Assembly (NCBI GenBank): GCA_918234285.1
Contig: CAKJXZ020000019.1
Coordinates: 1-32,352, forward strand
DNA from: Pseudomonadota bacterium
GTDB lineage: Bacteria > Pseudomonadota > Alphaproteobacteria > RF32 > CAG-239
DNA length: 32,352 nt
Direction: 5' to 3'
Shown in pieces: positions 10,111 through 22,732 of the stretch. The notes under the pieces were generated by a model. The model was given only the letters and a program-made list of their open reading frames with translations, had not been told where the DNA came from and did not search any database. The translations under genes were made by a program, and so were the position numbers. The number at the start of each line of letters is the position of its first letter. The first letter of the stretch is position 1.

Positions 10111-10578
10111 ATGCTTATAAAAACAACCTATTTCCTGGCGATTATCATGATTGTCGGATATGTTCTGCTCGGTCACACAACTCCCACCCGTGCCGACAAT
10201 TTAATCTATTATCAAAACGGTCAAGCAGAGCAGTTGCCGCTTGATAAAATGCCGGAAATCCTTGCAAATACCGACGCATTGATAAGCAAAATTGATGATG
10301 CCTTCCAGCTGATAGTAACAGACGAACTCATCACAGAATTAAAAAGTAAAGAATGTCTGGAGATTGTTTTATCTGCAAAACGTGAAGTAAAACCTAATGA
10401 TTTTGTTGCATCCGGCTTTTTTTATTCGCGCTTGTTGCTTCCGCTCTGCAACGGCGAAAACTGCGGTAAAGGCGCCGTATTTTATTTCGGCAACGACCGT
10501 ACCTATTTTACCCCGCCGTATATCAACAAAAACGATGACACTCATTTGGAAGAAATCCGCAAAATTATAGGTAAATAA
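10111..10578 (+). CDS. Hypothetical exported protein
   Basis: GGAGG RBS; signal-peptide-like N-terminus. Confidence 0.75.
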   Translation: MLIKTTYFLAIIMIVGYVLLGHTTPTRADNLIYYQNGQAEQLPLDKMPEILANTDALISKIDDAFQLIVTDELITELKSKECLEIVLSAKREVKPNDFVASGFFYSRLLLPLCNGENCGKGAVFYFGNDRTYFTPPYINKNDDTHLEEIRKIIGK

Positions 10579-10589
10579 CGGGAAATATT

Positions 10590-11102: not shown

Positions 11103-11110
11103 TTCAAGCA

Positions 11111-11137
11111 AAGAACCGCCCGAACGGGCGGTTTTTT
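11111..11137. terminator. Bidirectional terminator hairpin
   Basis: AACCGCCC-GAAC-GGGCGGTTTTTT between convergent genes. Confidence 0.8.
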
Positions 11138-11158
11138 AACAGAATTTACCTGCCGATA

Positions 11159-13222
11159 TTACAGAATAAATCTGTGCATCAGCGCCGAAACATCGGCCAA
11201 CAACGCTATACGGTTTTGGCGTTCGCGCAAGTCGTCCGAAAGCACCATATTATTATCAAAGAAAGTATTAATCGGTGCACAAATCTCGCTCATAACCTTC
11301 ACAAAATTCATATAATCCTTTTGCTCGAGGTATTGCTCCGCCGCCGCTTTGGCCGCAACAAATGCCTCCGCCGCGCGTTTCTCGTCCGCATTGTTTACCA
11401 GAGCCATCGCAAATTCGGTTTGCTTCTTTTCCTTCATCAAATTATCGATACGCTGCATGGTTTGCGCAAACAACTTAAACGGCTCGGCCGTCAGCAAATT
11501 ATTGATAACCTGCGCCTTAACGTCGATTTCCGCCACATTAATCGTCGCCAAATCAATCCGGTTGATGACGTCGGTTATCGAATAATGTAAATCTTCATTC
11601 AGCATCACCGAGAGGCGCTGTTTGATAAAGCCGATTACATAATCAACAAAGTCAGCTTTGCTCATATTTTCAGCCTTATAATAGCCTTCATACAAATCGG
11701 CAACTTCGGCCACAAAATCAGCCAATGCGATATTAAAGCCGAATTTACGGACAATCAGCAAAATACCGATTGTCTGGCGGCGCAACGCAAACGGGTCCTG
11801 CGAGCCGGTCGGCTTCAAATTAACCGCGCACAAACCCAAAATGGAATCCAATTTATCGGCAATTGCCATAACGGCACCGAGTTCGGTTTCCGGCAATCTA
11901 TCGCCAGCAAAACGCGGCAAATATTGTTCTTCAATAGCTTTGGAAACACTCTGCTCATAGCCTTCTTCCGCTGCATAAATACTTCCCATAATGCCTTGCA
12001 ATTCGGAAAATTCGCCCACCACGGTCGAAACCAAATCCGCTTTCATAATCGCCGCCACCGTATCGATTTGCTTATCCGCACCGAGCGCCGATTTTTGCGC
12101 CAACAAATGCGCCAACGCGGCAACACGTTTCATTTTTTCGGCATAACTTCCCAACTTGGTCTGAAACACCACTTGCGGCAATTTCTTCGCTTTATCCGCC
12201 AACGTGGTCTTTTTATCTTCGTGATAGAAAAACTCGCCGTCTTTCAAACGCGCCGTCAACACACGCTGATTGCCTTTGGTAACACCGTCAATACCATAAT
12301 CATCGCCGTTACGCACAAACACAAAACAGTTGGCCAATTTACCGTTACGATATGCCGGAAAATAGCGTTGATGGTCTTTCATCGGCGTAATCACAATCGG
12401 GTCCGGCATCGCCAAAAATGCCTCATCAAAATGACCGAGAGCCGCCGTCGGATATTCCACCAAATTCACGATTTCATCAAGCAAACTCTCGTCAATCGGC
12501 ACCTGAATATCATTCTTTTGTTCCAAATCCTGAATTTGCTGTAAAATCAACTTCTTGCGTTCATCTTGGTTCACAATCACAAAAGCTTCTTTAGCCTTGG
12601 CGAAGTAGTCGTCAACCGATGTAATCGTATATTTTTTATCCGCCAACATTCTGTGTCCTTGCGTAAAATCGGCCGCACTTAAAAATTCCAGTGCAAAATC
12701 CAACCGCCGCGTCCCCAAAAACGCCAGCAACCAACGTATCGGGCGAATATATTTGCCGACAAACACATTCCAACGCATCGGATTCGGCTGATATACCGAC
12801 ATAATCAAATCCGGCAGAATCTTTTCCAAAATTTCGCCGGTATCTTTCGCCGCCGTTTTCTGCACGGCAAAGATATATTCAACCCCCTTGATATCCTTAA
12901 CGAAAGTATCATCCAAAGTCAGTTTGCGACCGGCCAAAAAGCCCTCCAACGCCTTGGTCGGTTTGCCGTTTTCATCATACGCACTCTTTTGCGCCGGACC
13001 TTTGACTTCCACTTCCTGACCGGCCACCTGCAAAGCAACGTTTTCGATATATAAAACCAAGCGGCGCGGTGTATAAAAAACCTTCAATCCGGCAAATTCG
13101 ATTAAATTTTCCGCCAAAGCCTTCTGCGTGTTGTCGCGCAGACTTTCAGCCATTCTTTTGACATACTGTGCCGGAATTTCCTCTATTCCGATTTCCAGTA
13201 AAAACTTTTCACTTGCTGTCAT
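11159..13222 (-). CDS. glyS: Glycine--tRNA ligase beta subunit
   Basis: FLLEIGIEEIP, TPRRL, IRPIRWL, LVEYP, HQRYFP, EFSELQGIMG, PTGSQDPFALRR. Confidence 0.97.
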   Translation of the reverse strand: MTASEKFLLEIGIEEIPAQYVKRMAESLRDNTQKALAENLIEFAGLKVFYTPRRLVLYIENVALQVAGQEVEVKGPAQKSAYDENGKPTKALEGFLAGRKLTLDDTFVKDIKGVEYIFAVQKTAAKDTGEILEKILPDLIMSVYQPNPMRWNVFVGKYIRPIRWLLAFLGTRRLDFALEFLSAADFTQGHRMLADKKYTITSVDDYFAKAKEAFVIVNQDERKKLILQQIQDLEQKNDIQVPIDESLLDEIVNLVEYPTAALGHFDEAFLAMPDPIVITPMKDHQRYFPAYRNGKLANCFVFVRNGDDYGIDGVTKGNQRVLTARLKDGEFFYHEDKKTTLADKAKKLPQVVFQTKLGSYAEKMKRVAALAHLLAQKSALGADKQIDTVAAIMKADLVSTVVGEFSELQGIMGSIYAAEEGYEQSVSKAIEEQYLPRFAGDRLPETELGAVMAIADKLDSILGLCAVNLKPTGSQDPFALRRQTIGILLIVRKFGFNIALADFVAEVADLYEGYYKAENMSKADFVDYVIGFIKQRLSVMLNEDLHYSITDVINRIDLATINVAEIDVKAQVINNLLTAEPFKLFAQTMQRIDNLMKEKKQTEFAMALVNNADEKRAAEAFVAAKAAAEQYLEQKDYMNFVKVMSEICAPINTFFDNNMVLSDDLRERQNRIALLADVSALMHRFIL

Positions 13223-13235
13223 CTAAAAAACTCCT

Positions 13236-14078
13236 TTAGCACTCTTGCGACAAATACGATTTGGCGATTTCTTTCATCAAATTACGAATACGCGCAATAT
13301 AGTTGGCACGTTCGGTAACGCTGATGGCTCCCTTGGCATCCAACACATTAAACATATGCGAACATTTCAGCGCAAAATCATACGCGGTGTAGATATTGCC
13401 CAAAGCGGTCAAACGCTTGGATTCCGTTTCATAATTGTCAAAATCGGCAAACAGCTGCTTCTCGTTGCACAGCTCAAAACAATATTTTGAGTGGTCGTAT
13501 TCGCGGTGATGATAAATATCGCCGTATTTTTCCGCCGGACTGTATTGCAAATCATACACGTTTTCCACGTTTTGCAAATACATCGCAATGCGCTCGAGAC
13601 CGTAAGTAATCTCCGCCGTAATCGGCTTGCAGGTCATACCGCCGATTTCCTGGAAAAAGGTAAATTGCGTAATTTCCATACCGTCGAGCCATACTTCCCA
13701 ACCCTTACCGAAAGCGCCGAGCGTCGGGGACTCCCAGTTATCTTCCACAAAGCGAATGTCGTGCTCTTTTTTGTTAAAGCCGATATATTCCAAACTCTTG
13801 ATATAAATATCCACAATATCAATCGGCGACGGTTTGATAATTACCTGAAACTGATGGTGCTGATACAAGCGGTTCGGGTTATCGCCGTATCTGCCGTCGG
13901 CCGGCCGGCGTGACGGTTCCACATAAGCGCGCGCCACCGGCTTTTCACCGAGCGCACCGAAAAAAGTCAGCGGATTCATGGTACCGGCGCCCTTTTCCAC
14001 ATCGTAAGGTTCGCCGATGGTACAACCTTGTTCCAACCAAAAATCCTGCAATTTGCGTTTTAATTCCTGAAAATTCAT
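13236..14078 (-). CDS. glyQ: Glycine--tRNA ligase alpha subunit
   Basis: [40 protein letters not shown]; ATG at 14078. Confidence 0.97.
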
Positions 14079-14109
14079 TAAGTGCCTCACTTATTTATAA
14101 TTCTGCGGG

Positions 14110-14138
14110 ATTGTACCCACAAAAAAAAGTCATGTCAA
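14110..14138 (-). promoter_or_regulatory. Sigma70 promoter of glyQS
   Basis: TTGACA(14138-14133)-17 bp-TACAAT(14115-14110). Confidence 0.8.
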
Positions 14139-14195
14139 CAGATATTTATTTTGCTTGGCATACTCCCGTTGCCGAAACGATATACCGATTCCGCC

Positions 14196-15404
14196 TCAGC
14201 CGCGCCGCAATTCATCCAACGTTTGCGCGATAACATCGGCATATTCCGCCACAGCCTCAGCCGACGTACCTTCGCGAAAAATCGGCATTCCGAAAGAATT
14301 TTGCAACACTTTTTCCGTCAGCGGCAACTTGCCATAACCGTAATTGACCGCCTTATCGGCAAACACTTTGTGGGTGTGCAAAAGCGGATAAAATTCGTTT
14401 TCAATCGGCACTCCTCTTGCTTTGAGCACCGCAATTAAATCCGCTTTAGACACGGTAAAGTCTTGCATATCAATCAAAATGCGATAGCTAAAATGCCCGC
14501 CCGGCCGATAAAACGGCGACTTTTGCCGCGGAACTCTGACCGACGGAATTTTTTCCAGGGCCGCATAAAACATTTGGTGCAGTTTGTTTTCTTTTTGTAA
14601 ACGTTCTTCCAGGTTTTCCGTTTCGACCAGCGCCAATGCCGCACAAAGCGGGCTGATTCGATGTTTATACCCTAATCCGAGATATGCCAAATCGGTATCT
14701 GCGACCAATTCTTTTCTGGCGCGCTCGTAGTGGCCCAAAAGCAACGCCCGCTCATAATACTTTTTATTGCCCGTCAAAAAGATACCGCCCTCGCCGGCAC
14801 ACAACGGCTTGCCGGCCTGCATACTGAAACAACCGATATCAAACAGCGTCCCTACCGGTTTATCTCGCCAATATGCCCCTAAAACGTGCGACGCATCTTC
14901 AATAACCGGAACATAATACTGTTCCGCAATTCGCTTAATCTCATCCAAATCCGTAACCTGCCCGAACAAATGCGGAACCACAATCGCCGCCGTATTTGGA
15001 TTGATTTTGCGCTCCAAATCCTGCGGGTCGACCATCAGAGTTTCCGCGCTTATTTCCGCAAATCTGACGGTTGCACCGCAATTTATTGCCGGCAAAATCG
15101 AGGCCCACCACGTAAACGACGGACACAATATCTCTTTACCTTTCAAAGCTTCGGCCGGTTCATATCCTTCGCCGACGGCAAAAAAAGCCGAATGCAGCGT
15201 GGCCGTTCCGTTATTCATCGTCAACACATAATCAACATTGAAGAAACTCTTTAATTTTTTCTCCAACTCGCGCGTCATACCGCCTTCATCGGGAAAAGAT
15301 ATATCGCGCTTTGTCAGACACTTCTGCAGTGCGGCCAAGTGCTTATCGGTCAATACCGGATACGTAAAAGATGCCTTGTTTTTCATCATAACCTCCGCTT
15401 TCAT
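14196..15404 (-). CDS. DegT/DnrJ/EryC1/StrS PLP-dependent sugar aminotransferase
   Basis: NNGTATLH, PSFTWWAS, VIEDASH, FSMQAGKPLCAGEGG; GGAGG suggests an alternative start at 15386/15389. Confidence 0.93.
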   Translation of the reverse strand: MKAEVMMKNKASFTYPVLTDKHLAALQKCLTKRDISFPDEGGMTRELEKKLKSFFNVDYVLTMNNGTATLHSAFFAVGEGYEPAEALKGKEILCPSFTWWASILPAINCGATVRFAEISAETLMVDPQDLERKINPNTAAIVVPHLFGQVTDLDEIKRIAEQYYVPVIEDASHVLGAYWRDKPVGTLFDIGCFSMQAGKPLCAGEGGIFLTGNKKYYERALLLGHYERARKELVADTDLAYLGLGYKHRISPLCAALALVETENLEERLQKENKLHQMFYAALEKIPSVRVPRQKSPFYRPGGHFSYRILIDMQDFTVSKADLIAVLKARGVPIENEFYPLLHTHKVFADKAVNYGYGKLPLTEKVLQNSFGMPIFREGTSAEAVAEYADVIAQTLDELRRG

Positions 15405-16822
15405 AAATATTTTTCAATGATGGAATCCGCCGCCATCAACCCCGTTGCGCCGGCTGCGGAAATCCCCGAAACCACCCCGCCGGCGTCGCCGATAAAATAC
15501 AGCCCTGGACAGTTGCTTTCGGCCTTTTTTAACTCGAGCCGCGGCGCATATTTCACTGCCGAAGGCGCCAGCAACACCGTATTGTTATAAAAATAATTCG
15601 AGTCCGTAACCACCGACTTCATCAGCTCGATAAACCATTCAATCGCAATCCCGTATTTTTCCGCCAACGGCCGCAAATTAGCCGCAACACAGCCGCTCAA
15701 GGTTAAAGATAAATCATCGATATCCGCCTGAGCCGATTTACTTCCGCTCAAGTAATCCGCCAACTTTTGCGCCGGAACTGCTCCTTTTTCCAAAGTATTG
15801 GCCTCATGCACAAATTCCGCCGCAAATTTGCAACTGTTTTTACCTGCCGGCACTTTCACTTTTGAAAGCAGCGAAAAATTTGTTTTATTGCCGCGACACG
15901 AATAAGCATGTTGCCCGTCCAAAACAAAATCCTCGCTTCCCCAGGCAAACGGATATTTCATCATTCGCCCGCCGCCGCAAATACAAAAAGTCCGATGTTT
16001 GCCGCAGGCGCTTTTAATGCGCGGATTGCAGGCACCGCCTAACAGTTTATCCGCAATTTCCGCCGAAGTTTCCACTCTGAATCCCAATTCTGTTTCCGCC
16101 GGAAAACTATGTTGTAAGGCGAATTTACGGATAAATTCCGCCACCATTGGAATGCTGCGATAACCGGTTGCCACCGCTACCGTTTTGGCATAAAACTTTT
16201 CCGTTTCTTCGCCTGTTTTTTGCTTACACGATACTATAAAATCCCCGTTTTTATCAATGTCCGTAACCGTTCTGCTGCCGAGAAGGCATACGCCGTATTG
16301 CGCCAAATCCCGCTCCAACTTGGCCGCGATTTTTTTAATATCATCCAACCTGGCCGGTATGGTTCCGGAAGGAGACGCCCCCACACGAGCATTACCGCAA
16401 ACGGCTGGCTCAGCCGCTGGCTTTTGCAACCCGGCCGCAAACATATAGTCATAAAATTTCATAATATACGCTTCCGTCGCATCGCCCAAAGCCGCCTCCA
16501 AAAACGGCGAAAACTTGAAATCGGCGATACGCTCTTTTTGCTCGCCGTCCGCATAGGGATAATTATCAAAATTTGCTTCAAAATGCAGAGCCGCCCCGCC
16601 CAATCCGGACAGGCATGAATGTCGCCGGCAGCACGGCTCGTGCAAAGAACAATCATAAGTCTGACGCACAAAATGAGCGCACAAATTATCGTCAAATGCC
16701 CCGCCTTTATCGAGCAACAACACTTTTTTCCCGTTTTGAGCGAGCGAGACGGCGCACAAAGCACCGGCCGGGCCGGCACCGATAATAATCGTGTCAAACT
16801 TTTTTACTTTATTTTCTTCCAT
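15401..16822 (-). CDS. FAD/NAD(P)-dependent oxidoreductase with Cys-rich insert
   Basis: IIIGAGPAG, Cys cluster before SGLGGA, RTFCICGGG, GLYFIGDAGG..SGI. Confidence 0.85.
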   Translation of the reverse strand: MEENKVKKFDTIIIGAGPAGALCAVSLAQNGKKVLLLDKGGAFDDNLCAHFVRQTYDCSLHEPCCRRHSCLSGLGGAALHFEANFDNYPYADGEQKERIADFKFSPFLEAALGDATEAYIMKFYDYMFAAGLQKPAAEPAVCGNARVGASPSGTIPARLDDIKKIAAKLERDLAQYGVCLLGSRTVTDIDKNGDFIVSCKQKTGEETEKFYAKTVAVATGYRSIPMVAEFIRKFALQHSFPAETELGFRVETSAEIADKLLGGACNPRIKSACGKHRTFCICGGGRMMKYPFAWGSEDFVLDGQHAYSCRGNKTNFSLLSKVKVPAGKNSCKFAAEFVHEANTLEKGAVPAQKLADYLSGSKSAQADIDDLSLTLSGCVAANLRPLAEKYGIAIEWFIELMKSVVTDSNYFYNNTVLLAPSAVKYAPRLELKKAESNCPGLYFIGDAGGVVSGISAAGATGLMAADSIIEKYL

Positions 16823-18924
16823 ACGACATCCTTTATCCGAACATCTGTAAGATAAGAATAAATAAAGCCTTCGGTCGCCCGCGCCATCTTCTTCAAACGC
16901 CGCAAACGATTTGCGGCATAAGCCGGAATTTCTTTAATCATATCTTCCGCAGTCACTCCCGTCAGCTTGCCGTAAAAAGCCAAAAGCTTGGCGATAAGCC
17001 TTGTTAAATCAGATTTTTGATACAAAATTTTTTCCGCCAACTTAGCCGGTGACAGCTTGTTTTCCGCATAGATAATTCCAACCATCAGCACAAAATTCAA
17101 AATATCGAATAGCTGATTTTCATTCTTTTGAAAATCTTCCCAATCCACAAAAACCAACTCACCGTTTTTCTTCACGATAACCTGCCACGGATCTATATCT
17201 CCGTGCACATATCCCATCGGCTCGATTGCATCAATACGAGACGATTTATGAAATTCGGCCAAACATTCTACGGATTTAAGCAAAAACTCCTCGGCAGCGG
17301 CCGGATTTTGACGCATCAGTGACGACAACAGCATCCCTTCCTCGTATTTTTGAATAACGTATTTGGAATTACACTTACCGCACACTTCCGGTACAAATGC
17401 GAATTTCTTCAGCAAAGACAGCGCCTCATATTCGGTTTTGGCAAATGAATCCCGTCTGGTTTTTGCCGCTTTTATAAAATAATCATACTTTGTCGGCGCA
17501 TTTTTATTCAGCTTCAAATCCACAAAACAACGCTGATAATTTTCCTTGGCGATTCCTTTGTTATAGCGTAAATGAGCTTCCCAAACCTCCGGCTTCACTC
17601 CCAAATCGGATACGGCCTCTTTCAAAATTTTACGAATTGCCGATTGCGGCCATCTGTTGGCAAACTCCACCAACTGCACGGTTTTTCCGCAGGATTCGCA
17701 CTTGGCGGTCCATCCGTCTTTAACATACATACTGCCGTGACAATTATCACAGCTGAATTCCTCTATAACAGAGAAAGTTTCCGGCATGGTTTGAGTACGA
17801 ATTTTGCGCGAAAGAACATGCGAAACACCGTTTTTGGCAGCAAAAGAATCATACATTTTCATAACGGCCGCAGTATCTTCCGCACCGCCTATCATCGGTG
17901 CCGTGCGGTTTTTCACGCAGTCAACAAATGCCGCTAATTCGTTAATATAGCCGTAAAGTGCGTGCGAATGCAAACTGAGAGCCCCCAAAGGCCTCCGCAA
18001 ATTCGGGTTCCAAACGTGAGAATGCGTACCATCGGCTCGCACAAACGAAAAATCCCGTCCGTAAGAACCCGGATTCCCCGGCTCGTGCAAAACCACTTCT
18101 TCGGCATTTTTCAATTCAATAAGCGTGCCGTTGTCAATCTTATCGGAATTGCCGACAATTCGCATATATTCAGCCGGTCCGGTAATGCTTATGCCACCCA
18201 AAATCCGCACAACTCCGGTCAGGCCGTTTTTATATTCCAACACGGCGACGGCATCATTTTCGCCACCGCGATAAGTCGTCATCTTATACGGGCAACCGAA
18301 CAAAAACTGAATCTGCGATAAAATATGGACGATATCATCCAAAAATCTCCGCGCATTCACATCCGTCAAATCGCGGACATCCGACGGAAAACTGACCGCA
18401 TAAGACACATCGAAAGATTGCGGCGCTCCAAATTTTGGGGTACTGATTAACTTTTTAACCTGTTGCAATGCCGGCGCAAACATCATTTTAAATCCGGTCT
18501 GAAAGAAGGTATTGCCTTTTTTTGCCGCCGCCGTCAATAAACCGAGTTGCTGATACGACGCGGCCGGAGGTTTTTCCAACCAAACAGGAATTCCCTTTTC
18601 CAAAAACTGCGGAATAATATCCGGATACAGCGGATTTCCGGTTTCCGGCGAAAAGCCGATAATCACCAGCAAAGCATCGTATTTTTCCGGAAAAGCCTTA
18701 AGCAGTTCGTCGGTCGAGCTGCACCAGTTTGCCACACCGTGATACTTGGCAAACAACTCCGCCTTTTCCGCGTTTTTATCGCAAAAGACGGTCAGCACCG
18801 CGTCCGGAATATAACGTATTGAAGGCAAAATATTGCGATACACATGACTGCCGCAACCCAAAACGGCCAGCCGCACCGGCTTTTCCACCTCGATAATTTC
18901 TCCTTCGATACCCAGCAATTTCAT
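16804..18924 (-). CDS. Gfo/Idh/MocA oxidoreductase fused to a Zn ribbon and an APH/choline-kinase-like phosphotransferase
   Basis: LAVLGCG, WLEKP, DDIVH; CDNC...CESC; HGDIDPWQV and FVDWE. Confidence 0.85.
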   Translation of the reverse strand: MKLLGIEGEIIEVEKPVRLAVLGCGSHVYRNILPSIRYIPDAVLTVFCDKNAEKAELFAKYHGVANWCSSTDELLKAFPEKYDALLVIIGFSPETGNPLYPDIIPQFLEKGIPVWLEKPPAASYQQLGLLTAAAKKGNTFFQTGFKMMFAPALQQVKKLISTPKFGAPQSFDVSYAVSFPSDVRDLTDVNARRFLDDIVHILSQIQFLFGCPYKMTTYRGGENDAVAVLEYKNGLTGVVRILGGISITGPAEYMRIVGNSDKIDNGTLIELKNAEEVVLHEPGNPGSYGRDFSFVRADGTHSHVWNPNLRRPLGALSLHSHALYGYINELAAFVDCVKNRTAPMIGGAEDTAAVMKMYDSFAAKNGVSHVLSRKIRTQTMPETFSVIEEFSCDNCHGSMYVKDGWTAKCESCGKTVQLVEFANRWPQSAIRKILKEAVSDLGVKPEVWEAHLRYNKGIAKENYQRCFVDLKLNKNAPTKYDYFIKAAKTRRDSFAKTEYEALSLLKKFAFVPEVCGKCNSKYVIQKYEEGMLLSSLMRQNPAAAEEFLLKSVECLAEFHKSSRIDAIEPMGYVHGDIDPWQVIVKKNGELVFVDWEDFQKNENQLFDILNFVLMVGIIYAENKLSPAKLAEKILYQKSDLTRLIAKLLAFYGKLTGVTAEDMIKEIPAYAANRLRRLKKMARATEGFIYSYLTDVRIKDVVWKKIK

Positions 18925-20186
18925 TAAAGTAACCTTTCCATATCTGCCGTTATTTCATCAATCCGTGCCGCCGGAAAAGAAAAACAGCGTTCAAAATACA
19001 ATCTTTGCTTCTCTGCCAAACTTTTGCGATATGCCTTGCCGGCAATATCCGCCAAAATTCGGCCGTATCTATGCTTCAATGCCGTAAAAACCGCGCCGTT
19101 TTCGTCATGCAAAATATCGGCAATATGCTCATAAAGCACCGTAATATCACTTTCTTTCATCCCCTTCAGATGCCTAATAAACGGTGTCAGCATCTGCCCC
19201 GGAAAAATCTCCTCCGGATTTTCGACATGTCCGGTGAGTGCGCGATAATTCGGCCAATGTCCGTCGTGCTGTTCCGGCAAAAATATCAGCGGTTTGTCAT
19301 AAGCCCGACTTTCATAAAAAGTAGTCAGCGACGGTGGCGCAATTACTGCTGAAGCGGAACTGATTGTTTCGTAATAATCATGATAATTCAAATGTTTGCA
19401 CAGTACCGACGGGAAACCGGTTTGCTTAATAATCTCCGCCAGATTTTTCATCACAAACGGGTGTCCGATAATCAGCAGACGATTTTCTTCTTTTTGCAAA
19501 AATTCACCAAATCCGTCTTTGGTAACCCCGAGAATCAATTTGCAATAATCCAACACGTTTTCCGGTTTGACAATCGGATTAAATTGCCCGCAAAAACTCA
19601 GCACTGCCGTATTGTTATCCGATTTTTTCGCCGCGGCAAATGAGGCATCGACAATCGGCGCCACAATCTTTTTATGCGGAATATATTCAATATTGCGCGA
19701 GGCTTTTTCTTCGTCAAAACACGCCTGCAAATACGAAATCAGAGCATATTTATGAGCCAAATACTGTTGCTCGTGCGGGTGCGTATTTTTCCCGATATAA
19801 GCCAAATCTTCCAATGTTTGCACCGGCAGATTATCCAAAAAATCAATCCGGTCCGGACGCCAATCCCAAAACCAATACAGGCTGTCAATCAAAACCACCG
19901 GCACCTTGTAAATATGCGCCGTCAGCACAATTTTCGGTTCCATCACGGAAACCACCGCATCATAATACTTATCGCTTATACGCTGCTCAATCATACCGCG
20001 TTGCCGATTATCGTAAACATTTTGAAAGATATTTCTCCGCGTGTTGGCCAGCTCGTAAGCCGTTCCGGTGCCGATAAAATCTATCGCGATATGCGGGTTA
20101 TCCCGCCGCAACAACGAAGCTACAACCGCCCCCTTTGCCGCCGGACCGAACCCGAAACCTTGTGCCGAAACCAGAACTCTTTGCAT
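18924..20186 (-). CDS. GT-B glycosyltransferase resembling CGA-synthase-related proteins
   Basis: N-terminal VLVSAQGFGFGPAAK, VVSVMEP, IDSLYWFWDW, APPSLTTFYE...PLIFLPEQH; TAATG coupling to the next gene. Confidence 0.65.
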   Translation of the reverse strand: MQRVLVSAQGFGFGPAAKGAVVASLLRRDNPHIAIDFIGTGTAYELANTRRNIFQNVYDNRQRGMIEQRISDKYYDAVVSVMEPKIVLTAHIYKVPVVLIDSLYWFWDWRPDRIDFLDNLPVQTLEDLAYIGKNTHPHEQQYLAHKYALISYLQACFDEEKASRNIEYIPHKKIVAPIVDASFAAAKKSDNNTAVLSFCGQFNPIVKPENVLDYCKLILGVTKDGFGEFLQKEENRLLIIGHPFVMKNLAEIIKQTGFPSVLCKHLNYHDYYETISSASAVIAPPSLTTFYESRAYDKPLIFLPEQHDGHWPNYRALTGHVENPEEIFPGQMLTPFIRHLKGMKESDITVLYEHIADILHDENGAVFTALKHRYGRILADIAGKAYRKSLAEKQRLYFERCFSFPAARIDEITADMERLL

Positions 20187-20190
20187 TCCC

Positions 20191-20847
20191 CTACCTTTTT
20201 CTTAAAGCAGTAAACCAAAATTTTTGCGGCACGTCTTCTTTGCCGGCCACCGGTATATTGTCAAACACATACATTTCCTCAACATAAAAATCCGTCAAAA
20301 ATGTGTTCAATATATCATCGGAAGTCAGCCTTATCGGCCCGTTACCGGAAGTTGACGGCGGCATCAAATAAGAAAAACCGCGCATAAAATAGCGACCGCC
20401 GCTTTTCAGGCAATATTTCACAGCATTTTTGTATGCTTGACGATCTTGCGGCAAAATATGATGAAAACACCCTTGGTCCGTAACAATATCAAATGCGCCC
20501 GCAAATTCTTTCAGTTGCTCGATTTCCAAAAAATTCTGCACTCTGAAATCAACCTTGGTATCCAGGAGGGCCGCATATTTTTCGGCCTTAGCGATAATGG
20601 CCGGGTCGGCATCGATTGCCGCCACCCGGTGTCCGTGCCTGGCCATAAAAACCGCCTCGGTACCGAAACCGCACCCGACATCCAAAATACTCATGCCGGC
20701 CGGAATTTGCTTATTGATAATCTTTTTCAATATTTCAATCCCCACCGCACCGGTTACCCACGGAACATTCTCGAGAGTCGCCTTATCGTGATACACTTCG
20801 TTAAAGTATTGCTTTACCGTCCCTTTATCTGTATGTATATCCGCCAT
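20191..20847 (-). CDS. Class I SAM-dependent methyltransferase
   Basis: ILDVGCGFG, AAID, FDIVTDQGCFHHI, LKSGG. Confidence 0.92.
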   Translation of the reverse strand: MADIHTDKGTVKQYFNEVYHDKATLENVPWVTGAVGIEILKKIINKQIPAGMSILDVGCGFGTEAVFMARHGHRVAAIDADPAIIAKAEKYAALLDTKVDFRVQNFLEIEQLKEFAGAFDIVTDQGCFHHILPQDRQAYKNAVKYCLKSGGRYFMRGFSYLMPPSTSGNGPIRLTSDDILNTFLTDFYVEEMYVFDNIPVAGKEDVPQKFWFTALRKR

Positions 20848-20850
20848 ATT

Positions 20851-22071
20851 CTATCCTTTATTTTTGATTAATTGCGAGAAATAGGTATCTTTTTTAACCA
20901 TCGCCGGCAATCCGCACCGCCCGACCAGACAATCCGGAATTTTTAATGTTCCGTCCTCCTGATACATACATTCGAGCAAAGCGGCAAAAACGCGCGGAAT
21001 AGCAAAGCCCGGGGTATTATAGGTGTGTACGTATTTTTTCTCTCCTTCAGGTGTAAGATAAGTTGCGTTAAGGCTGCACGCCTGAAACGTGGCGCGATAG
21101 CTCAAGCTCGAAATCTCCAGCCATTTTTTAAGCCCCGGCGCATAAATTTCGTAGTCGCACGTAAATGAGCCGGCTTGCCCCATATCGCCGGTGCAGAGCA
21201 ACAATTTTCGCCACATAAAGCCCAATTTTTCCAGCAAATTCTCCAACATGGCCGACAAGCTGTCCAACACTTCTTCCCACTGGTCTTCCCGACAAACGGT
21301 AAACGATTCCACTTTGCCGAATTCGTGCAAATTGGTATATAAGTCAATTTCCCGTCCTCTCTCAACACGGAAAGATCTGGCAAAACCGACAACTTTCATC
21401 GGCAACTCATCGTATTCAAACTTGCGATTTCTGATTAAGCTTGTTTCCTGCATCTCGATTGTCGGGTTCAAATACAAAGATGTACCTTCGATTTTATAAA
21501 CGTTATGCTGATGTTTCGGAAACGAACCGGCCATAAAAAACGTGCGTTCGTGCGTCAAAATCGGCATTGATATTTCGTCGTAGCCGTAATCGGCATGATG
21601 GTCAAGCATCAACCCGATGAGCGCTCTTTCCAACTTTGGTCCCACTCCCGACAAAACCGGAAATCCCATTTCGGCGATGGTTTCGTTCATCGCTTTGGAA
21701 AAAATTCCGAACTCGGCACCGATTTGCTCATAATTCTTCTTTGTTTGATATGTTTTCGGAGCAGACTCCTTTAATATGACATTCTGCTCCGAAGAATTCC
21801 CTATCGGGACGATTTTATGTGAAACATTAGGTAAGCTCAAATACAATGCCAACATTTTGCCTACTTCGTCTTGCGGATTATTCACCTCCCGCAGTGTCAT
21901 ATACCGCGCCCGTTCTTCCAGTTCTTCGGTCGGTGGCAGAGGCGTTGTGCTTGCAACCTTTTTATATTGTTCCAGAAAGTTCTTAAACATCTCCAAACCC
22001 TTGCGTGCTTCCATCGCCGCGCACAAACTTTCGTAGTTGGCCGGATTTACCAAATATTCTAAAGAATTCAT
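20851..22071 (-). CDS. serS: Divergent serine--tRNA ligase-like protein (class II aaRS paralog)
   Basis: LPN..VPIG, LERALI, YLNPTIE, FRVE..HEFGKVE, LCTGDMG, EISS, VHTYN; many signature residues substituted and the N-terminal arm is short. Confidence 0.8.
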   Translation of the reverse strand: MNSLEYLVNPANYESLCAAMEARKGLEMFKNFLEQYKKVASTTPLPPTEELEERARYMTLREVNNPQDEVGKMLALYLSLPNVSHKIVPIGNSSEQNVILKESAPKTYQTKKNYEQIGAEFGIFSKAMNETIAEMGFPVLSGVGPKLERALIGLMLDHHADYGYDEISMPILTHERTFFMAGSFPKHQHNVYKIEGTSLYLNPTIEMQETSLIRNRKFEYDELPMKVVGFARSFRVERGREIDLYTNLHEFGKVESFTVCREDQWEEVLDSLSAMLENLLEKLGFMWRKLLLCTGDMGQAGSFTCDYEIYAPGLKKWLEISSLSYRATFQACSLNATYLTPEGEKKYVHTYNTPGFAIPRVFAALLECMYQEDGTLKIPDCLVGRCGLPAMVKKDTYFSQLIKNKG

Positions 22072-22118: not shown

Positions 22119-22148
22119 AATATACACCACGGTATAAAATACTGTCAA
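22119..22148 (-). promoter_or_regulatory. Putative promoter of the biosynthetic operon
   Basis: TTGACA(22148-22143)-18 bp-TATATT(22124-22119); TATAC-N6-GTATA dyad overlapping the -10 box and spacer. Confidence 0.6.
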
Positions 22149-22280
22149 TACGTTACAAACATTTCGGTAAATAAAAAAATAATTTTCCGCCTATAAGATG
22201 ATTATTTCGGCGGTATCCCGAATAATATGCTTAAAAGATTGTCCTTCGCTAGAGCTCACGACCTGTGTCGCCTTTCAGCT

Positions 22281-22589
22281 TTCGCTGACCGGCATACTTC
22301 CGTCTGCCGGCGGCTCCTTGTCGAACGCTCTTTTCCGAGCGTTCTAATCCTCTGCCCCACTAAAAACAGCAAAACCGCCCAAACGGGCGGCTTGCTGTTT
22401 TTGGCAGGGGCAGAACGATTGTTTCGATCCGCTCCTCCTTCGCTCTCATCGCTTCGCGACCGGCGCGCTTCCGCTAGCCTTTCGTTTGGCGTCGAACGCT
22501 CTTCCCGCGTTCTAATCCTCTGCCCTACTCAAAAACACCAAAACCGCCCAAACGGGCGGTTTGTCGTTTTTGGCAGGGGCAGAACGATT
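22281..22589. repeat. Two ~170-bp imperfect tandem units with direct and inverted copies of the tRNA-Trp 3' end around a terminator hairpin
   Basis: GTCGAACGCTC at 22320 and 22491; TGGCAGGGGCAGAACGATT at 22402 and 22571; AACCGCCCAAACGGGCGG at 22373 and 22542. Confidence 0.85.
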
Positions 22590-22646
22590 CGAACGCTCGA
22601 CACTTGGTTTTGGAGACCAATGCTCTACCAACTGAGCTATACCCCT
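22571..22646 (-). tRNA. tRNA-Trp (CCA)
   Basis: 76 nt AGGGGTATAGCTCAGTTGGTAGAGC ATTGGTCT-CCA-AAACCAAG...TTCGAAT...GCCCCTGCCA; folds as a cloverleaf with encoded CCA end. Confidence 0.97.
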
Positions 22647-22732
22647 ATCATTTCGGAATTGCTTATAAAACATTTCGTTTTATAAATCAAGCACTTTTTT
22701 CTTTCTTTCGCACATTTATTTTTCTACACGTT

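What the first reader, a model, noticed from the sequence alone, without database searches (positions are those of the whole stretch)
14196..22071. Candidate undescribed aaRS-associated aminoacyl-nucleoside/amino-sugar biosynthetic operon
Seen: six tightly coupled genes (gaps of at most 4 nt, or overlaps) behind one promoter: SerRS-like, methyltransferase, CGA-synthase-like glycosyltransferase, dehydrogenase-kinase fusion, FAD oxidoreductase and DegT aminotransferase, then glyQS. Known: in blasticidin S, mildiomycin and gougerotin, a CGA synthase joins cytosine to glucuronate; in gougerotin, oxidation plus transamination give a 4-amino sugar that is acylated with sarcosyl-D-serine. Inference: this set supplies glycosylation, oxidation/amination, aminoacylation, methylation and phosphorylation, and its Ser- and Gly-type synthetases plus a methyltransferase parallel gougerotin's Ser/N-methyl-Gly moiety, but with aaRS-fold enzymes and in a non-actinomycete. 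Caveat: no exporter, nucleotide hydrolase (BlsM/MilB) or radical SAM gene is in view, and the product is unknown.
Basis: partly seen in the sequence, partly recalled or inferred. Interest (0 to 1): 0.9.

Follow-up and report, generated by a model that had tools for sequence, protein, structure and literature searches.

The report
Mobile aaRS-linked aminoacyl amino-sugar operon
A rare, horizontally travelling six-gene operon that pairs an arm-less seryl-tRNA-synthetase copy with sugar-building and sugar-aminating enzymes probably makes an unknown aminoacylated sugar-nucleoside compound, and it repeatedly sits beside extra glycyl-tRNA-synthetase genes, as antibiotic clusters do with resistant copies of their target.

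Summary
In detail: six co-directional genes (22071 to 14196, minus strand; gaps 3 and 4 nt, overlaps 1, 19 and 4 nt) encode an arm-less SerRS paralogue, a SAM methyltransferase, a GT-B glycosyltransferase whose nearest curated family is CGA synthase, a Gfo/Idh/MocA dehydrogenase fused to a RIO-like kinase, a flavoprotein and a DegT aminotransferase, followed by glyQS.

The set is a real, conserved and mobile module. It was found in 2 of 283 genomes of the host's order. The same genes recur in order in a distant alphaproteobacterial MAG, a contig binned as Methanosarcinales, and several metagenome contigs. None of the annotated flanks hold polysaccharide genes. Relatives add LOG/SLOG domains, a short UDP-sugar dehydrogenase-like gene, Nudix-CYTH or nucleoside phosphorylase, which points to nucleobase-sugar chemistry.

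The most striking result concerns GlyRS. One carrier has three GlyRS loci, two of them flanking the cluster. Another contig couples a GlyRS gene to the SerRS-like gene. The window's clade replaced the genus-typical dimeric GlyRS with a foreign glyQS.

My best reading is an undescribed aminoacyl amino-sugar or nucleoside pathway aimed at translation (confidence about 0.55). The product, the amino acid and the role of GlyRS are inferred, not shown.

The parts
22119..22148 (-). sigma-70-like promoter site in front of the SerRS-like gene
   Evidence: 11 of 12 consensus matches. This is a pattern match only. The count of such sites in the region equals the shuffle expectation.
20851..22071 (-). arm-less SerRS paralogue (P0001, 406 aa), the proposed ATP-dependent amino-acid ligase
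   Evidence: PF00587 only, and TIGR00414 at 227.7 bits, below the 301.65 cut-off. A canonical serS lies elsewhere in the genome. The arm region is 46-60 residues against 81-91 in canonical enzymes, and the motif 2 loop is shortened, while the catalytic R/E/T residues are kept. The family is one clade with SH-aLRT 99. The model has the SerRS fold without the long coiled coil.
20191..20847 (-). class I SAM-dependent methyltransferase (P0006, 218 aa)
   Evidence: Methyltransf_25/11/31. Relatives of this MT were found in 10 further distinct loci. Nine lie within 1.4 kb of the GT and one (L078) lies 2.4 kb away beyond the SerRS gene; the G001 locus is counted once and distant L030 is excluded.
18924..20186 (-). 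GT-B glycosyltransferase of a rare CGA-synthase-related family (P0002, 420 aa)
   Evidence: No Pfam hit. Only 23 relatives were found in the 5.8-billion-protein search. 22 of 23 members hit TIGR04467 best, all far below its cut-off. The AF2 model has pLDDT 90.5 and a GT-B fold, with GT1 small-molecule UGTs as top PDB matches. The Atlas neighbours are CGA-synthase-related clusters.
17689..18924 (-). Gfo/Idh/MocA dehydrogenase domain ending in a CxxC...CxxC zinc-ribbon-like motif (residues 1 to about 412 of P0003)
   Evidence: PF01408/PF22725/PF02894. The best PDB hit by sequence is 3m2t. This part is a separate gene of about 415-423 aa in L009, L068, L075 and L078.
16804..17652 (-). RIO-like kinase domain (residues about 425-706 of P0003)
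   Evidence: Weak RIO1/LanKC hits. Invariant HGD.DP and DWE motifs occur in 7 of 7 aligned homologues. The best profile hits in PDB are RIO2 kinases at E 1e-7. This part is a separate gene of about 290-305 aa in other loci.
15401..16822 (-). FAD-dependent oxidoreductase of the VP0956/COG2509-like type (P0004, 473 aa)
   Evidence: N-terminal FAD Rossmann hits. The C-terminal part matches 3nlc. The Atlas neighbours carry PF21688 FAD-depend_C. The gene is missing from the module in L069, L075 and L078.
14196..15404 (-). DegT/DnrJ/EryC1 PLP aminotransferase (P0005, 402 aa)
   Evidence: PF01041 at 234.6 bits. The best PDB relatives are sugar and inosose aminotransferases.
14110..14138 (-). second sigma-70-like site, in the 105-nt gap before glyQ
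   Evidence: 11 of 12 consensus matches. This is a pattern match only.
11159..14090 (-). glyQ (13236-14090) and glyS (11159-13222): the genome's only GlyRS, of a foreign type
   Evidence: Both score over their curated cut-offs. No dimeric GlyRS is present in the genome. GlyQ is 48-60% identical to that of 50 class genomes but 90% to that of the distant cluster carrier L007. GlyS is 60-63% identical to that of sister genomes whose ThrRS is 95% identical.
11114..11134 (.). GC-rich hairpin after glyS, one of only five copies of this motif in the genome
   Evidence: The other copies in the window are at 22373-22393 and 22542-22562, so the three bracket the cluster plus glyQS.
22362..22646 (-). tRNA-Trp (22571-22646) with a 59-nt direct repeat (22362-22420 and 22531-22589) that duplicates its 3' end and terminator hairpin
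   Evidence: This is att-like and marks a variable spot. The sister genome G001 carries about 3 kb of extra genes between the repeats and the cluster.

Best explanation
The six genes form a self-contained, horizontally mobile biosynthetic operon for a small aminoacylated amino-sugar compound, most likely a hexose (uronate) nucleoside.

Proposed order of steps, all inferred:
1. The CGA-synthase-related GT-B enzyme joins a UDP-sugar to an acceptor, probably a free nucleobase.
2. The Gfo/Idh/MocA dehydrogenase oxidises one sugar hydroxyl to a ketone.
3. The DegT enzyme transaminates the ketone to an amine.
4. The arm-less SerRS paralogue forms an aminoacyl-adenylate (most likely seryl) and passes the amino acid to that amine instead of to tRNA.
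5. The methyltransferase, RIO-like kinase and flavoprotein tailor the compound or mask it temporarily.

The product probably acts on translation. The module is repeatedly tied to full-length aaRS genes, above all GlyRS, which most likely give the producer immunity (target replacement). Less likely, they supply a second (glycyl) residue.

Shown here: the gene set, its conservation and mobility, retention of the adenylation residues, loss of the tRNA arm, and the GlyRS multiplicity. Inferred: every substrate, the order of steps, the product and its target.
For: 1. Conservation and mobility.
- All six proteins recur in the same order in L007/G092, a MAG outside the host's order. Its ThrRS is 61% and its CysRS 43% identical, but its module proteins are 57-77% identical.
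- The same order recurs in L009, titled Methanosarcinales archaeon, and, with DH and kinase as separate genes, in metagenome contigs L068, L075, L078 and L069.
- The GT was found in 2 of 283 genomes of the host's order and in 2 of 41 relatives.

2. Arm-less SerRS family.
- The 19 closest homologues (32-97% identical to P0001) carry PF00587 without PF02403.
- The arm segment is 46-60 residues in 20 of 20 members, against 81-91 in 94 canonical enzymes.
- The motif 2 loop has a 3-residue deletion and loses an Arg that is invariant in canonical SerRS. FRxE, PTxE, KVE, the Mg/ATP Glu and Ser and the motif 3 Arg are kept in 19-20 of 20.
- The family is a single clade with SH-aLRT 99.
- The model superposes on SerRS at TM 0.83, and at rmsd 1.9 A on the E. 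coli arm-deletion mutant.
- A canonical serS is present elsewhere in the genome.

3. GT.
- 22 of 23 family members hit CGA synthase as the best NCBIfam family.
- The fold is GT-B, closest to GT1 small-molecule transferases.
- The Atlas neighbours are CGA-synthase-related.

4. Nucleobase and sugar context in relatives.
- SLOG/LOG domains are fused to the GT in 3 of 23 proteins and in L068, L069, L071, L075, L079 and L012.
- A LOG gene stands beside the module in L007.
- A short UDP-glucose/GDP-mannose dehydrogenase-like gene lies in L068 and L075.
- CYTH-Nudix lies in L078.
- Radical SAM, MT and nucleoside phosphorylase follow the GT in L081.

5. aaRS linkage.
- L075 has a dimeric GlyRS ending 1 nt before the SerRS-like gene.
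- G092 has three GlyRS loci. The native copy is 92-93% identical to that of its relatives. A divergent dimeric copy (55% to the native one) and a glyQS flank the module. None of 15 close relatives has glyQ.
- In the host genus, 26 of 30 other genomes have the dimeric GlyRS. The window's clade has only a foreign glyQS, whose nearest GlyS relatives outside Alphaproteobacteria are Firmicutes at 44% or less.
- The window's GlyS is 60-63% identical to that of sisters whose ThrRS is 95% identical.

6. Precedent.
- aaRS-like enzymes build aminoacyl nucleoside antibiotics (AcmF, SbzA), and producers carry resistant aaRS copies (passages read in PMC12945691, and PMC9437257).
Against: - No exporter, base-releasing enzyme, UDP-sugar dehydrogenase or carrier protein lies in the window's operon.
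- The GT scores 39.7 bits against a CGA synthase cut-off of 300, so membership is not met and the acceptor is unknown.
- The dehydrogenase, aminotransferase and flavoprotein match only broad families.
- In L068, L069, L078 and L079 the module carries a full-length, canonical-type SerRS instead of the arm-less one. L068 and L069 add an N-terminally shortened AspRS/AsnRS-like gene. Which enzyme is the ligase, and which amino acid it uses, is therefore unsettled.
- In the window glyQS is the sole GlyRS and has its own promoter-like site.
- Sisters G003, G005 and G008 have the foreign glyQS but no GT match, at completeness 83, 96 and 89%.
- L009 and the L068 group have no GlyRS nearby.
- Small genomes pack translation genes densely, so some aaRS adjacencies (for example pheT in L010) may be chance.
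- There is no expression or chemical evidence.
- The L009 taxon label rests on binning of a 13-kb contig.
Confidence: 0.55

Rival explanations
1. The module decorates a cell-surface glycan or glycoprotein. It would make an amino sugar that carries an amide-linked amino acid, as seen in some O-antigens and capsules, not a diffusible metabolite.
For: The dehydrogenase plus DegT pair is the standard route to amino sugars for surface polymers, and the best DegT hits include PseC, ArnB and WbpE-type enzymes. A GT4 glycosyltransferase lies elsewhere in the window at 916-2190.
Against: - No flippase, polymerase, initiating transferase or sugar nucleotidyltransferase was seen beside the module in the window, L007, L009, L068, L069, L075 or L078. 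Their annotated flanks hold translation, nucleotide-processing or unrelated genes.
- The GT is closest to small-molecule GT1 enzymes and to CGA synthase, not to polymer GTs.
- This reading does not explain the LOG/SLOG, Nudix and PNP neighbours or the extra GlyRS copies.
Confidence: 0.13
2. The module makes a protective or cofactor-like metabolite built like mycothiol. A GT makes a glycoside, and an aaRS paralogue ligates an amino acid to its amino sugar, for the cell's own use rather than as an antibiotic.
For: The logic is the same as MshA plus MshC. MshC is a CysRS paralogue that ligates Cys to GlcN-inositol (passage read in PMC9437257). The dehydrogenase's best NCBIfam hit is inositol 2-dehydrogenase, though weak at 43.7 bits against a cut-off of 355. 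No exporter is present.
Against: - The module occurs in only 2 of 283 genomes of the order and is scattered over unrelated phyla, which is unlike a core cofactor.
- The ligase is SerRS-derived and so provides no thiol.
- Extra, divergent GlyRS copies flanking the module have no role in such a pathway.
Confidence: 0.12
3. The SerRS-like gene is a spare or drug-resistant SerRS, glyQS is ordinary housekeeping, and both merely sit beside an unrelated sugar-modification operon.
For: Duplicate SerRS genes that confer albomycin resistance are known (passage in PMC9437257). The window is rich in aaRS genes: thrS, glyQS, gltX and cysS.
Against: - The paralogue lacks the tRNA-binding arm and has an altered motif 2 loop.
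- It forms a clade of its own.
- In all 5 lineages where I could see its context, it sits with the same MT, GT, DH, kinase and DegT genes: window/G001, L007, L009 and L075 by sequence, and an ENA contig inferred only from matching contig length.
- The spacing of 3-4 nt or overlaps argues for co-translation.
Confidence: 0.05
4. The module modifies tRNA or another part of the translation machinery, for example by adding a glycosyl-aminoacyl group to a nucleoside in RNA, which would explain its company of aaRS and CCA-adding enzyme genes.
For: aaRS genes are adjacent in 5 of 6 independent contexts, and a CCA-adding enzyme lies upstream in L068. GluQRS is a precedent for an aaRS paralogue that acylates a tRNA base (table in PMC9437257). 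The kinase's nearest structures are RIO2 ribosome-maturation kinases.
Against: The module has no RNA-binding domain, and the paralogue has lost its tRNA arm. The patchy distribution is unlike that of RNA-modification genes. LOG, PNP and UDP-sugar dehydrogenase-like neighbours point to free bases and sugar nucleotides.
Confidence: 0.05

Closest known systems
Cytosine hexuronate peptidyl-nucleoside pathways (gougerotin, blasticidin S, mildiomycin)
   Same: The GT's nearest curated family is CGA synthase. An oxidoreductase plus an aminotransferase could give a 4-amino sugar, as gouA, gouF and gouH give 4-amino-CGA. A methyltransferase is present, as GouN makes sarcosine (passage read in PMC12835213). 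Relatives carry base-releasing LOG/SLOG or PNP genes and a radical SAM gene. These are analogous to BlsM/MilB and BlsE, whose roles I recall from memory.
   Different: The GT is far below the family cut-off. No amidotransferase (GouB), acyl-CoA-type activator or N-acyltransferase (GouK, GouJ) or exporter (GouM) is present. Amino-acid attachment would be done by an aaRS paralogue. The hosts are gut Alphaproteobacteria, contigs of uncultured lineages and an archaeal bin, not actinomycetes. The module also has a kinase and a COG2509-type flavoprotein.
Aminonucleoside pathways (puromycin, A201A, cystocin)
   Same: A dehydrogenase (Pur10) plus an aminotransferase (Pur4) make an amino-nucleotide that is then aminoacylated and methylated. 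A Nudix enzyme (Pur7) takes part (passages read in PMC11641026). L078 has a CYTH-Nudix gene next to the module.
   Different: There is no Pur6-type synthetase, N-acetyltransferase or exporter. A GT is central here and has no counterpart in the puromycin core. Homology of the dehydrogenase to Pur10 was not tested.
aaRS-like enzymes in aminoacyl-nucleoside antibiotic synthesis (AcmD/AcmF of ascamycin, SbzA of SB-203208)
   Same: An aaRS-derived enzyme attaches the amino acid to a nucleoside-like scaffold, a second full aaRS gene lies in the cluster, and the products inhibit aaRS (passages read in PMC12945691).
   Different: Those enzymes derive from AlaRS and IleRS and use aminoacyl-tRNA. Here the enzyme is a class II SerRS core that has lost its tRNA arm, so direct transfer from the adenylate is more likely. 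The scaffolds there are sulfamates or sulfonamides, not amino sugars.
Mycothiol biosynthesis (MshA glycosyltransferase, MshC CysRS paralogue)
   Same: A GT-B enzyme makes a glycoside, and an aaRS paralogue ligates an amino acid to the amino group of its sugar without tRNA (passage in PMC9437257).
   Different: The aaRS class and the amino acid differ. The amine here is made by oxidation and transamination, not by deacetylation. The module is a rare mobile accessory, not a lineage-wide core pathway.
Target-replacement immunity in aaRS-inhibitor producers (albomycin SerRS2, mupirocin IleRS2, indolmycin TrpRS2)
   Same: An extra, divergent copy of one aaRS lies beside a biosynthetic cluster. The review gives about 30% identity between the coexisting copies (PMC9437257). 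Here the cluster-side dimeric GlyRS of G092 is 55% identical to the native copy, and a structurally different glyQS lies on the other side.
   Different: I know of no natural GlyRS inhibitor with a gene cluster (recalled, and none was listed). Resistance is untested. In the window the foreign glyQS has become the only GlyRS.
Amino acid:carrier-protein ligases (truncated SerRS homologues)
   Same: These are SerRS-derived enzymes that lost tRNA binding and acylate a non-tRNA acceptor. Some of them activate glycine rather than serine (table in PMC9437257).
   Different: As I recall, those derive from the methanogen-type SerRS and act on a phosphopantetheinyl carrier protein encoded nearby. Here the nearest sequences and structures are bacterial-type SerRS, and no PP-binding hit was found among the six proteins.

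Membership tests
Seryl-tRNA synthetase (TIGR00414 serS) | Score over the curated cut-off (301.65 bits) | tested here: not met
   227.7 bits. The genome's canonical copy on C30 scores 421 bits.
Seryl-tRNA synthetase (TIGR00414 serS) | Long N-terminal coiled-coil arm (PF02403) that binds tRNA-Ser | tested here: not met
   No PF02403 hit. The arm segment is 46-60 residues against 81-91. The model shows only short helices.
Seryl-tRNA synthetase (TIGR00414 serS) | Class II motif 2 and motif 3 residues for adenylate formation, and the Thr/Glu that I recall as contacting the serine hydroxyl | tested here: met
   R235, E237, T204, E206, E255, E319, S322, T350, R360 and E367 are kept in 19-20 of 20 family members. 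The assignment of these residues to serine contacts is recalled, not tested.
CGA synthase (TIGR04467) | Score over the curated cut-off (300 bits) | tested here: not met
   39.7 bits for the window protein. The best E-value among the 23 relatives is 4.4e-21.
CGA synthase (TIGR04467) | GT-B fold, nearest family among curated models | tested here: met
   The model has pLDDT 90.5 and a GT-B fold. TIGR04467 is the top family in 22 of 23 members. The Atlas neighbours carry PF27895 CGA_synth-rel.
CGA synthase (TIGR04467) | Uses a free nucleobase (cytosine) and UDP-glucuronate | not testable with these tools
   The only support is from context: LOG/SLOG fusions, a PNP gene and a UDP-sugar dehydrogenase-like gene in relatives. 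None of these is in the window.
Gougerotin-type gene cluster | Full enzyme set as listed in the passage read (gouA-gouN, including GouB amidation, GouK/GouJ acyl activation and transfer, GouM export) | tested here: not met
   Only functional analogues of the GT, oxidoreductase, aminotransferase and methyltransferase are present. I made no sequence comparison with the Gou proteins.
Puromycin-type aminonucleoside cluster | Pur6-type aminonucleoside synthetase together with Pur10, Pur4, Pur7 and Pur3 | tested here: inconclusive
   A dehydrogenase and a DegT enzyme of the same broad families are present, and a Nudix gene occurs only in L078. Nothing of Pur6 size or type is in the operon, but I did not run a Pur6 sequence.
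Amino acid:carrier-protein ligase system | Carrier protein (PP-binding) partner encoded alongside | tested here: not met
   None of the six proteins has a PP-binding hit. Small ORFs under 80 aa were not scanned.
aaRS-inhibitor cluster with a resistant target copy | An additional, divergent copy of one aaRS beside the cluster in a genome that keeps its native copy | tested here: met
   Met in G092, not in the window. G092 has the native dimeric GlyRS on C5 (92-93% to relatives), plus a 55%-identical dimeric copy and a glyQS flanking the module. The window's genome has glyQS only.
aaRS-inhibitor cluster with a resistant target copy | The extra copy is insensitive to the product | not testable with these tools
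   This needs the compound and enzyme assays.
Known anti-phage defence systems (PADLOC-DB) | Significant match of the component proteins to system models | tested here: not met
   The only matches are a generic methyltransferase hit (mad2, E 1.4e-20), a weak Type II methyltransferase hit on the same protein, weak kinase hits and a weak SspA hit on the aminotransferase. Three of the six proteins have no hit.

The most novel reading that the evidence does not exclude
The module makes the first known natural inhibitor of glycyl-tRNA synthetase, an aminoacyl amino-sugar nucleoside that mimics the aminoacyl-adenylate. It would be built by an aaRS core that has turned from tRNA to a sugar amine. The GlyRS genes that travel with the module would be immunity genes. 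Their spread among gut Alphaproteobacteria would then have driven replacement of the genus-typical dimeric GlyRS by a foreign glyQS, even in relatives that no longer carry the cluster.
Probability: 0.25. Interest if true: 0.9.

Novelty: new variant of a known kind. Interest (0 to 1): 0.78.

Why it matters
If the reading holds, four things follow.
- It is a new way of making peptidyl or aminoacyl nucleosides. A class II synthetase core that has lost its tRNA arm would attach the amino acid to an amino sugar, in place of the acyl-CoA, ATP-grasp or Pur6-type enzymes known from actinomycetes.
- It extends such chemistry to small-genome gut Alphaproteobacteria, to contigs of uncultured lineages and possibly to archaea, which are seldom considered as antibiotic producers.
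- The GlyRS pattern gives a directly testable prediction of the target. GlyRS is an enzyme for which I know of no natural inhibitor.
- It offers a concrete ecological cause for the long-noted patchwork of the two unrelated GlyRS types in bacteria.

Even if the product proves mundane, the arm-less SerRS family is a clean new case of an aaRS paralogue recruited outside translation.

Tried and rejected
Searches and ideas that led nowhere
- PADLOC scan of the six proteins. It gave a generic methyltransferase hit (plus a weak Type II methyltransferase hit on the same protein), weak kinase hits and a weak SspA hit on the aminotransferase, so I dropped the anti-phage defence reading.
- Rfam scan of the window at gathering thresholds. 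It found only tRNA-Trp, with no riboswitch or T-box in front of the operon or glyQS.
- tRNA genes near the module in nine loci. None is tRNA-Ser or tRNA-Gly, so I found no sign of a dedicated tRNA.
- PDB sequence searches. The GT has no hit at E up to 10. The dehydrogenase, flavoprotein and aminotransferase match only broad families, so no substrate could be read off.
- Sequencing runs. No RNA holder was listed. The RNA rows offered were added only by species label, so I did not lay reads, and nothing can be said about expression.
- Base composition. The cluster (GC 0.43-0.49) does not differ from its flanks, so composition gives no sign of recent transfer. The transfer argument rests on distribution and identity levels instead.
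- Cluster-linked GlyS sequences are not closer to each other than to the cluster-free sisters' copies: window to L007 is 63%, window to G008 is 63%. The three lineages are equidistant, so I did not claim a dedicated 'cluster GlyS' clade.
- The full-length SerRS genes inside L068, L069 and L078 fall among canonical SerRS, not with the arm-less clade. I therefore dropped the idea that every module-linked SerRS belongs to one special lineage.
- The actinomycete relatives of the GT (about 30 loci) share only the GT, kinase-like and flavoprotein trio. In L049 these sit among NRPS/PKS-type genes. I did not identify that cluster and use it only as a sign of secondary metabolism.
- Literature searches listed no paper on this gene set. 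They cover only Creative Commons PMC papers and bioRxiv. The original gougerotin and aa:CP ligase papers were not read; I saw only passages in later papers.

Tools not used or not available
The contexts of 14 of the 20 arm-less SerRS proteins therefore remain unseen.
- Complex prediction, read laying, the search of protein representatives, the RNA model tools and search_dna_similar were not used.

Full report
WHAT IS THERE

The window is contig C19 of a 2.0-Mb, 71-contig genome. The record of a sister genome is titled 'MAG: Alphaproteobacteria bacterium' (L006, which is G001).

On the minus strand lie six ORFs:
- 20851-22071
- 20191-20847
- 18924-20186
- 16804-18924
- 15401-16822
- 14196-15404

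They are separated by 3 and 4 nt, or overlap by 1, 19 and 4 nt. A gap of 105 nt follows, then glyQ (13236-14090) and glyS (11159-13222).

A promoter-like site matching 11 of 12 positions precedes the first gene (22148-22119). One of equal quality precedes glyQ (14138-14110). A GC-rich hairpin follows glyS. These are consensus matches only, and their number in the region is what shuffles give.

Rfam finds only a tRNA upstream, which is tRNA-Trp.

THE SIX PROTEINS

1. A class II synthetase core (PF00587) that matches serS at 227.7 bits, below the 301.65 cut-off, from model position 83 onward.
2. A class I SAM methyltransferase.
3. A 420-aa protein with no Pfam hit. Its best NCBIfam hit is CGA synthase, at 39.7 bits against a cut-off of 300.
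4. A Gfo/Idh/MocA dehydrogenase. It carries a CxxC...CxxC motif at residues 392-412 and is fused to a kinase-like domain.
5. A flavoprotein. Its C-terminal half matches the uncharacterised VP0956 structure 3nlc.
6. A DegT-family aminotransferase (234.6 bits).

THE SerRS-LIKE PROTEIN IS A DISTINCT, ARM-LESS PARALOGUE

The genome has a canonical serS elsewhere (C30, 421 bits, 415 aa with no stops).

In the 5.8-billion-protein search, 221 proteins scored at E 0.001 or better among 2082 candidates. The 19 best hits after the query (32-97% identical to it) carry PF00587 without the N-terminal arm domain PF02403. The hits below them are canonical SerRS with both domains, apart from three shorter entries that list PF00587 only.

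I aligned these 20 arm-less proteins with 94 canonical ones and found:
- The segment between a conserved Arg and the conserved Pro-Asn that ends the arm is 46-60 residues in the 20, against 81-91 in the canonical set.
- The motif 2 loop has lost three residues, and with them an Arg that is invariant in the canonical set.
- The residues of adenylate chemistry are kept in 19-20 of 20: FRxE, PTxE, KVE, a Glu and a Ser near the metal site, and the motif 3 Arg.
- Thr350 and Glu255 are also kept. My assignment of these two to the serine hydroxyl follows T. thermophilus SerRS from memory.

In a tree of 74 rows, the 23 arm-less rows form one side of a branch with SH-aLRT 99. This is the quick tree; the careful search did not finish.

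An AlphaFold2 model (pLDDT 88.5) has only short N-terminal helices. It matches bacterial SerRS structures at TM 0.83, and it superposes best on chains without an ordered arm, including the E. coli arm-deletion mutant at rmsd 1.9 A.

The protein can therefore very probably still make an aminoacyl-adenylate, but it has given up the normal way of holding tRNA-Ser. From memory, arm deletion in E. coli SerRS abolishes efficient tRNA charging but not serine activation.

THE GLYCOSYLTRANSFERASE

- Only 23 relatives were found in the large protein search. None has a Pfam domain except three that are fused to PF18306 (SLOG cluster 4, LOG-like).
- 22 of the 23 hit CGA synthase as their best NCBIfam family (best E 4.4e-21). 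5 hit the MJ1255 family and 2 hit MurG.
- The model (pLDDT 90.5) is a GT-B fold. Its best PDB matches are GT1 enzymes that glycosylate small molecules: plant UGTs, YojK, CalG and GtfD.
- The Atlas lists 'CGA synthase-related' clusters among the nearest.

The GT is not a member of the CGA synthase equivalog, but that is its closest described kin.

THE OTHER ENZYMES

- The kinase domain has invariant HGD.DP and DWE motifs in 7 of 7 homologues and is nearest to RIO2 in PDB (E 1e-7).
- The dehydrogenase and the aminotransferase match only broad sugar or inositol families.

THE SET IS CONSERVED AND MOBILE

Pattern scans with the GT alignment gave 59 loci in 185,579 species genomes and 48 loci in metagenomes. 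I ran tblastn of the six proteins against 108 loci and made ORF maps. They show:
- All six genes, in the same order, in G001 (93-98% identical).
- All six, in the same order, in L007/G092 (55-76% identical).
- All six in L009, titled Methanosarcinales archaeon, at 29-43%, with DH and kinase as two genes.
- The module without the flavoprotein in L075 and L078.
- The module with MT, GT-SLOG, DH, kinase, flavoprotein, DegT and then a full-length SerRS in L068.
- Partial sets in L069 and L079.
- CPR loci (L010, L013, L021, L099) keep only the DH plus GT.
- About 30 actinomycete loci keep the GT, a kinase-like gene and the flavoprotein. In L049 these lie among transketolase, A-T and KS-AT-ACP genes.

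Within the host's own order the GT was found in 2 of 283 genomes (G000 and G001; 219 of the 283 are of high quality).

G092 lies outside that order. Its ThrRS is 61% and its CysRS 43% identical to the window's, while the module proteins are 57-77% identical. This fits horizontal transfer of the module.

No polysaccharide export, polymerase or flagellin genes were seen in any annotated flank.

CONTEXT POINTS TO NUCLEOBASE-SUGAR CHEMISTRY

Besides the LOG-like fusions (L012, L068, L069, L071, L075, L079):
- L007 has a separate LOG-family gene two genes from the module (PF03641 and PF18306).
- L068 and L075 have a short UDP-glucose/GDP-mannose dehydrogenase-like gene, 57% identical between them.
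- L078 has a CYTH-Nudix gene after DegT.
- In L081 the GT is followed by a radical SAM enzyme, a methyltransferase and a PNP/UDP-family phosphorylase.

In the known cytosine nucleoside pathways, a nucleotide hydrolase frees the base and CGA synthase joins it to UDP-glucuronate (recalled). For gougerotin, gouA, gouF and gouH give 4-amino-CGA, and GouN methylates glycine (passage in PMC12835213). In puromycin, a dehydrogenase and an aminotransferase make the amino-nucleotide, and a Nudix enzyme takes part (passages in PMC11641026).

None of these helper genes is in the window itself.

THE GlyRS CONNECTION

(a) Coupling in L075. A dimeric GlyRS (592 bits against a cut-off of 312) ends 1 nt before the arm-less SerRS gene.

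(b) Three GlyRS loci in G092.
- A dimeric GlyRS (547.6 bits) lies divergently next to the SerRS-like gene, with the LOG gene behind it.
- glyS-glyQ lie convergently after DegT.
- A third GlyRS lies on another contig. It is 92-93% identical to those of relatives G343 and G348, and only 55% identical to the cluster-side copy.
- None of 15 close relatives of G092 has glyQ, and 14 of 15 have the dimeric enzyme.

(c) Replacement in the window's genus.
- 26 of 30 other genomes have the dimeric GlyRS.
- G000, G001, G003, G005 and G008 lack it and have glyQS. G042 has both.

(d) This glyQS is foreign.
- The window's GlyQ is 48-60% identical to the GlyQ found in 50 of 60 other genomes of the class, but 90% identical to that of G092.
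- The GlyS relatives at 60-96% identity that carry a name are all labelled Alphaproteobacteria MAGs. The next relatives, at 44% or less, are Firmicutes where named.

(e) The window's copy is not the sisters' copy. Its GlyS is 94% identical to G001's but only 60-63% to those of G003, G005 and G008. Those three are 83-86% identical among themselves, and their ThrRS and CysRS are 95% and 90-92% identical to the window's. The cluster-side glyQS is therefore not the vertical counterpart of the sisters' copy.

(f) A probable fifth lineage. A GlyS at 65% identity, a SerRS-like protein at 78% and a GT at 59% all list a longest contig of 92,880 bp from one source. They are probably on one contig, but I did not see it.

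(g) Bracketing hairpins. A hairpin motif that occurs only five times in the genome brackets exactly the cluster plus glyQS in G000 and likewise in G001. Next to tRNA-Trp, a 59-nt direct repeat duplicates the tRNA's 3' end.

Evidence against a functional tie:
- In the window glyQS is the only GlyRS.
- G003, G005 and G008 have this glyQS without a GT match.
- L009, L068, L069, L078 and L079 show no GlyRS nearby.
- The three glyS lineages are equidistant from one another.

HOW I READ IT

The enzyme logic is glycosylation, oxidation, transamination, ATP-dependent aminoacylation and methylation. The arm-less but catalytically intact SerRS core, the nucleobase and UDP-sugar helpers in relatives, the rarity and mobility of the set, and the company of extra aaRS genes all fit a small-molecule pathway for an aminoacyl amino-sugar nucleoside directed at translation.

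Precedents read in passages:
- aaRS-like enzymes that aminoacylate nucleoside antibiotics (AcmF, SbzA; PMC12945691).
- MshC, aa:CP ligases and resistant second aaRS copies in producers (PMC9437257).

For the GlyRS genes I favour immunity by target replacement. It alone explains three things: the two extra copies of different architecture in G092, the loss of the native enzyme in the window's clade, and the presence of the foreign glyQS in cluster-free sisters. I put a functional tie at about 0.6.

An open difficulty is the mismatch between a seryl-type ligase and a GlyRS target. The aa:CP ligases show that truncated SerRS homologues can activate glycine (table in PMC9437257). However, the arm-less family keeps the residues that I recall as binding the serine hydroxyl.

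A second difficulty is that the L068 group carries a full SerRS and a shortened AspRS-like gene instead. The amino acids and targets may therefore differ between variants.

NOVELTY

Five literature searches listed nothing on this gene set. A 2022 review of aaRS paralogues lists only SerRS2, SLIMP and aa:CP ligases for SerRS.

The kind is known: an aaRS paralogue in natural-product synthesis, with a resistant aaRS beside the cluster. This architecture, these hosts and the GlyRS link are new. I rate it a new variant of a known kind, of high interest, with every chemical step still to be shown.

Noticed in passing
genomes G000-G046 (genus of the window); window 11159-14090: The two unrelated GlyRS types alternate within one genus. 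25 of 31 genomes have only the dimeric enzyme, 5 have only a Firmicutes-like glyQS, and 1 (G042) has both; its glyQ is 58% identical and sits on a 7-kb contig.
   Followed up: yes
window 22362-22646: tRNA-Trp is followed by a 59-nt direct repeat (93% identical, 169 nt apart) that duplicates its 3' end and terminator hairpin, like an att site. The 152-aa ORF at 22227-22685 overlaps the tRNA and both repeats on the other strand and has no family hit, so it is probably not a gene.
   Followed up: partly
window 11114-11134, 22373-22393, 22542-22562: A GC-rich hairpin motif (CCGCCC, 4 nt, GGGCGG) occurs five times in the 2.0-Mb genome. Three copies bracket the cluster plus glyQS. G001 has three copies after tRNA-Trp and one after glyS. 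The motif was not found in the stretches examined of L007, G003, G004, G005, G008 and G012. The copies may be similar terminators or the ends of a cassette.
   Followed up: partly
L125 (G001:C23) 7027-14744: The sister genome has about 7.9 kb that the window lacks between the SBP gene and the SerRS-like gene. It holds a DUF6994 protein, a 483-aa ankyrin-repeat protein, an RNase T-like exonuclease, an alpha/beta hydrolase and, 160 nt upstream of the SerRS-like gene on the same strand, an ADP-ribosylglycohydrolase-family gene.
   Followed up: partly
L049 5000-20200 and about 30 other actinomycete loci (L029-L060): Distant relatives of the GT, the kinase-like domain and the flavoprotein form a conserved trio in Streptomyces and allies. 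In L049 the trio sits among transketolase, Gfo/Idh/MocA, A-T, KS-AT-ACP and 3-hydroxyacyl-CoA dehydrogenase genes. I did not identify that cluster.
   Followed up: partly
L081 9986-14097: A GT 31-32% identical to the window's is followed by a radical SAM enzyme, a methyltransferase and a PNP/UDP-family nucleoside phosphorylase. This may be a different nucleoside pathway built on the same GT family.
   Followed up: partly
window 2221-4152, 11159-14090, 25907-28674: The 32-kb window holds thrS, glyQS, gltX and cysS besides the SerRS paralogue, which is an unusually dense set of synthetase genes.
   Followed up: no
window 28984-32352: A tyrosine recombinase gene (28984-30150) borders a low-GC stretch (0.37-0.39 against about 0.46 elsewhere). 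The stretch holds a weak DNA-methyltransferase-like ORF and ORFs without family hits. It is probably a separate integrated element.
   Followed up: no
L122 (G008:C34) 9613-10451: In G008, glyQ aligns in two overlapping pieces in different frames. This is a frameshift or an assembly error in that genome's only GlyRS alpha subunit gene.
   Followed up: no
L007 19562-20095: A GNAT acetyltransferase gene lies just beyond glyQ at the end of the G092 island. Acetyltransferases are common self-protection enzymes for aminonucleoside antibiotics (recalled). It was seen only in this locus.
   Followed up: no
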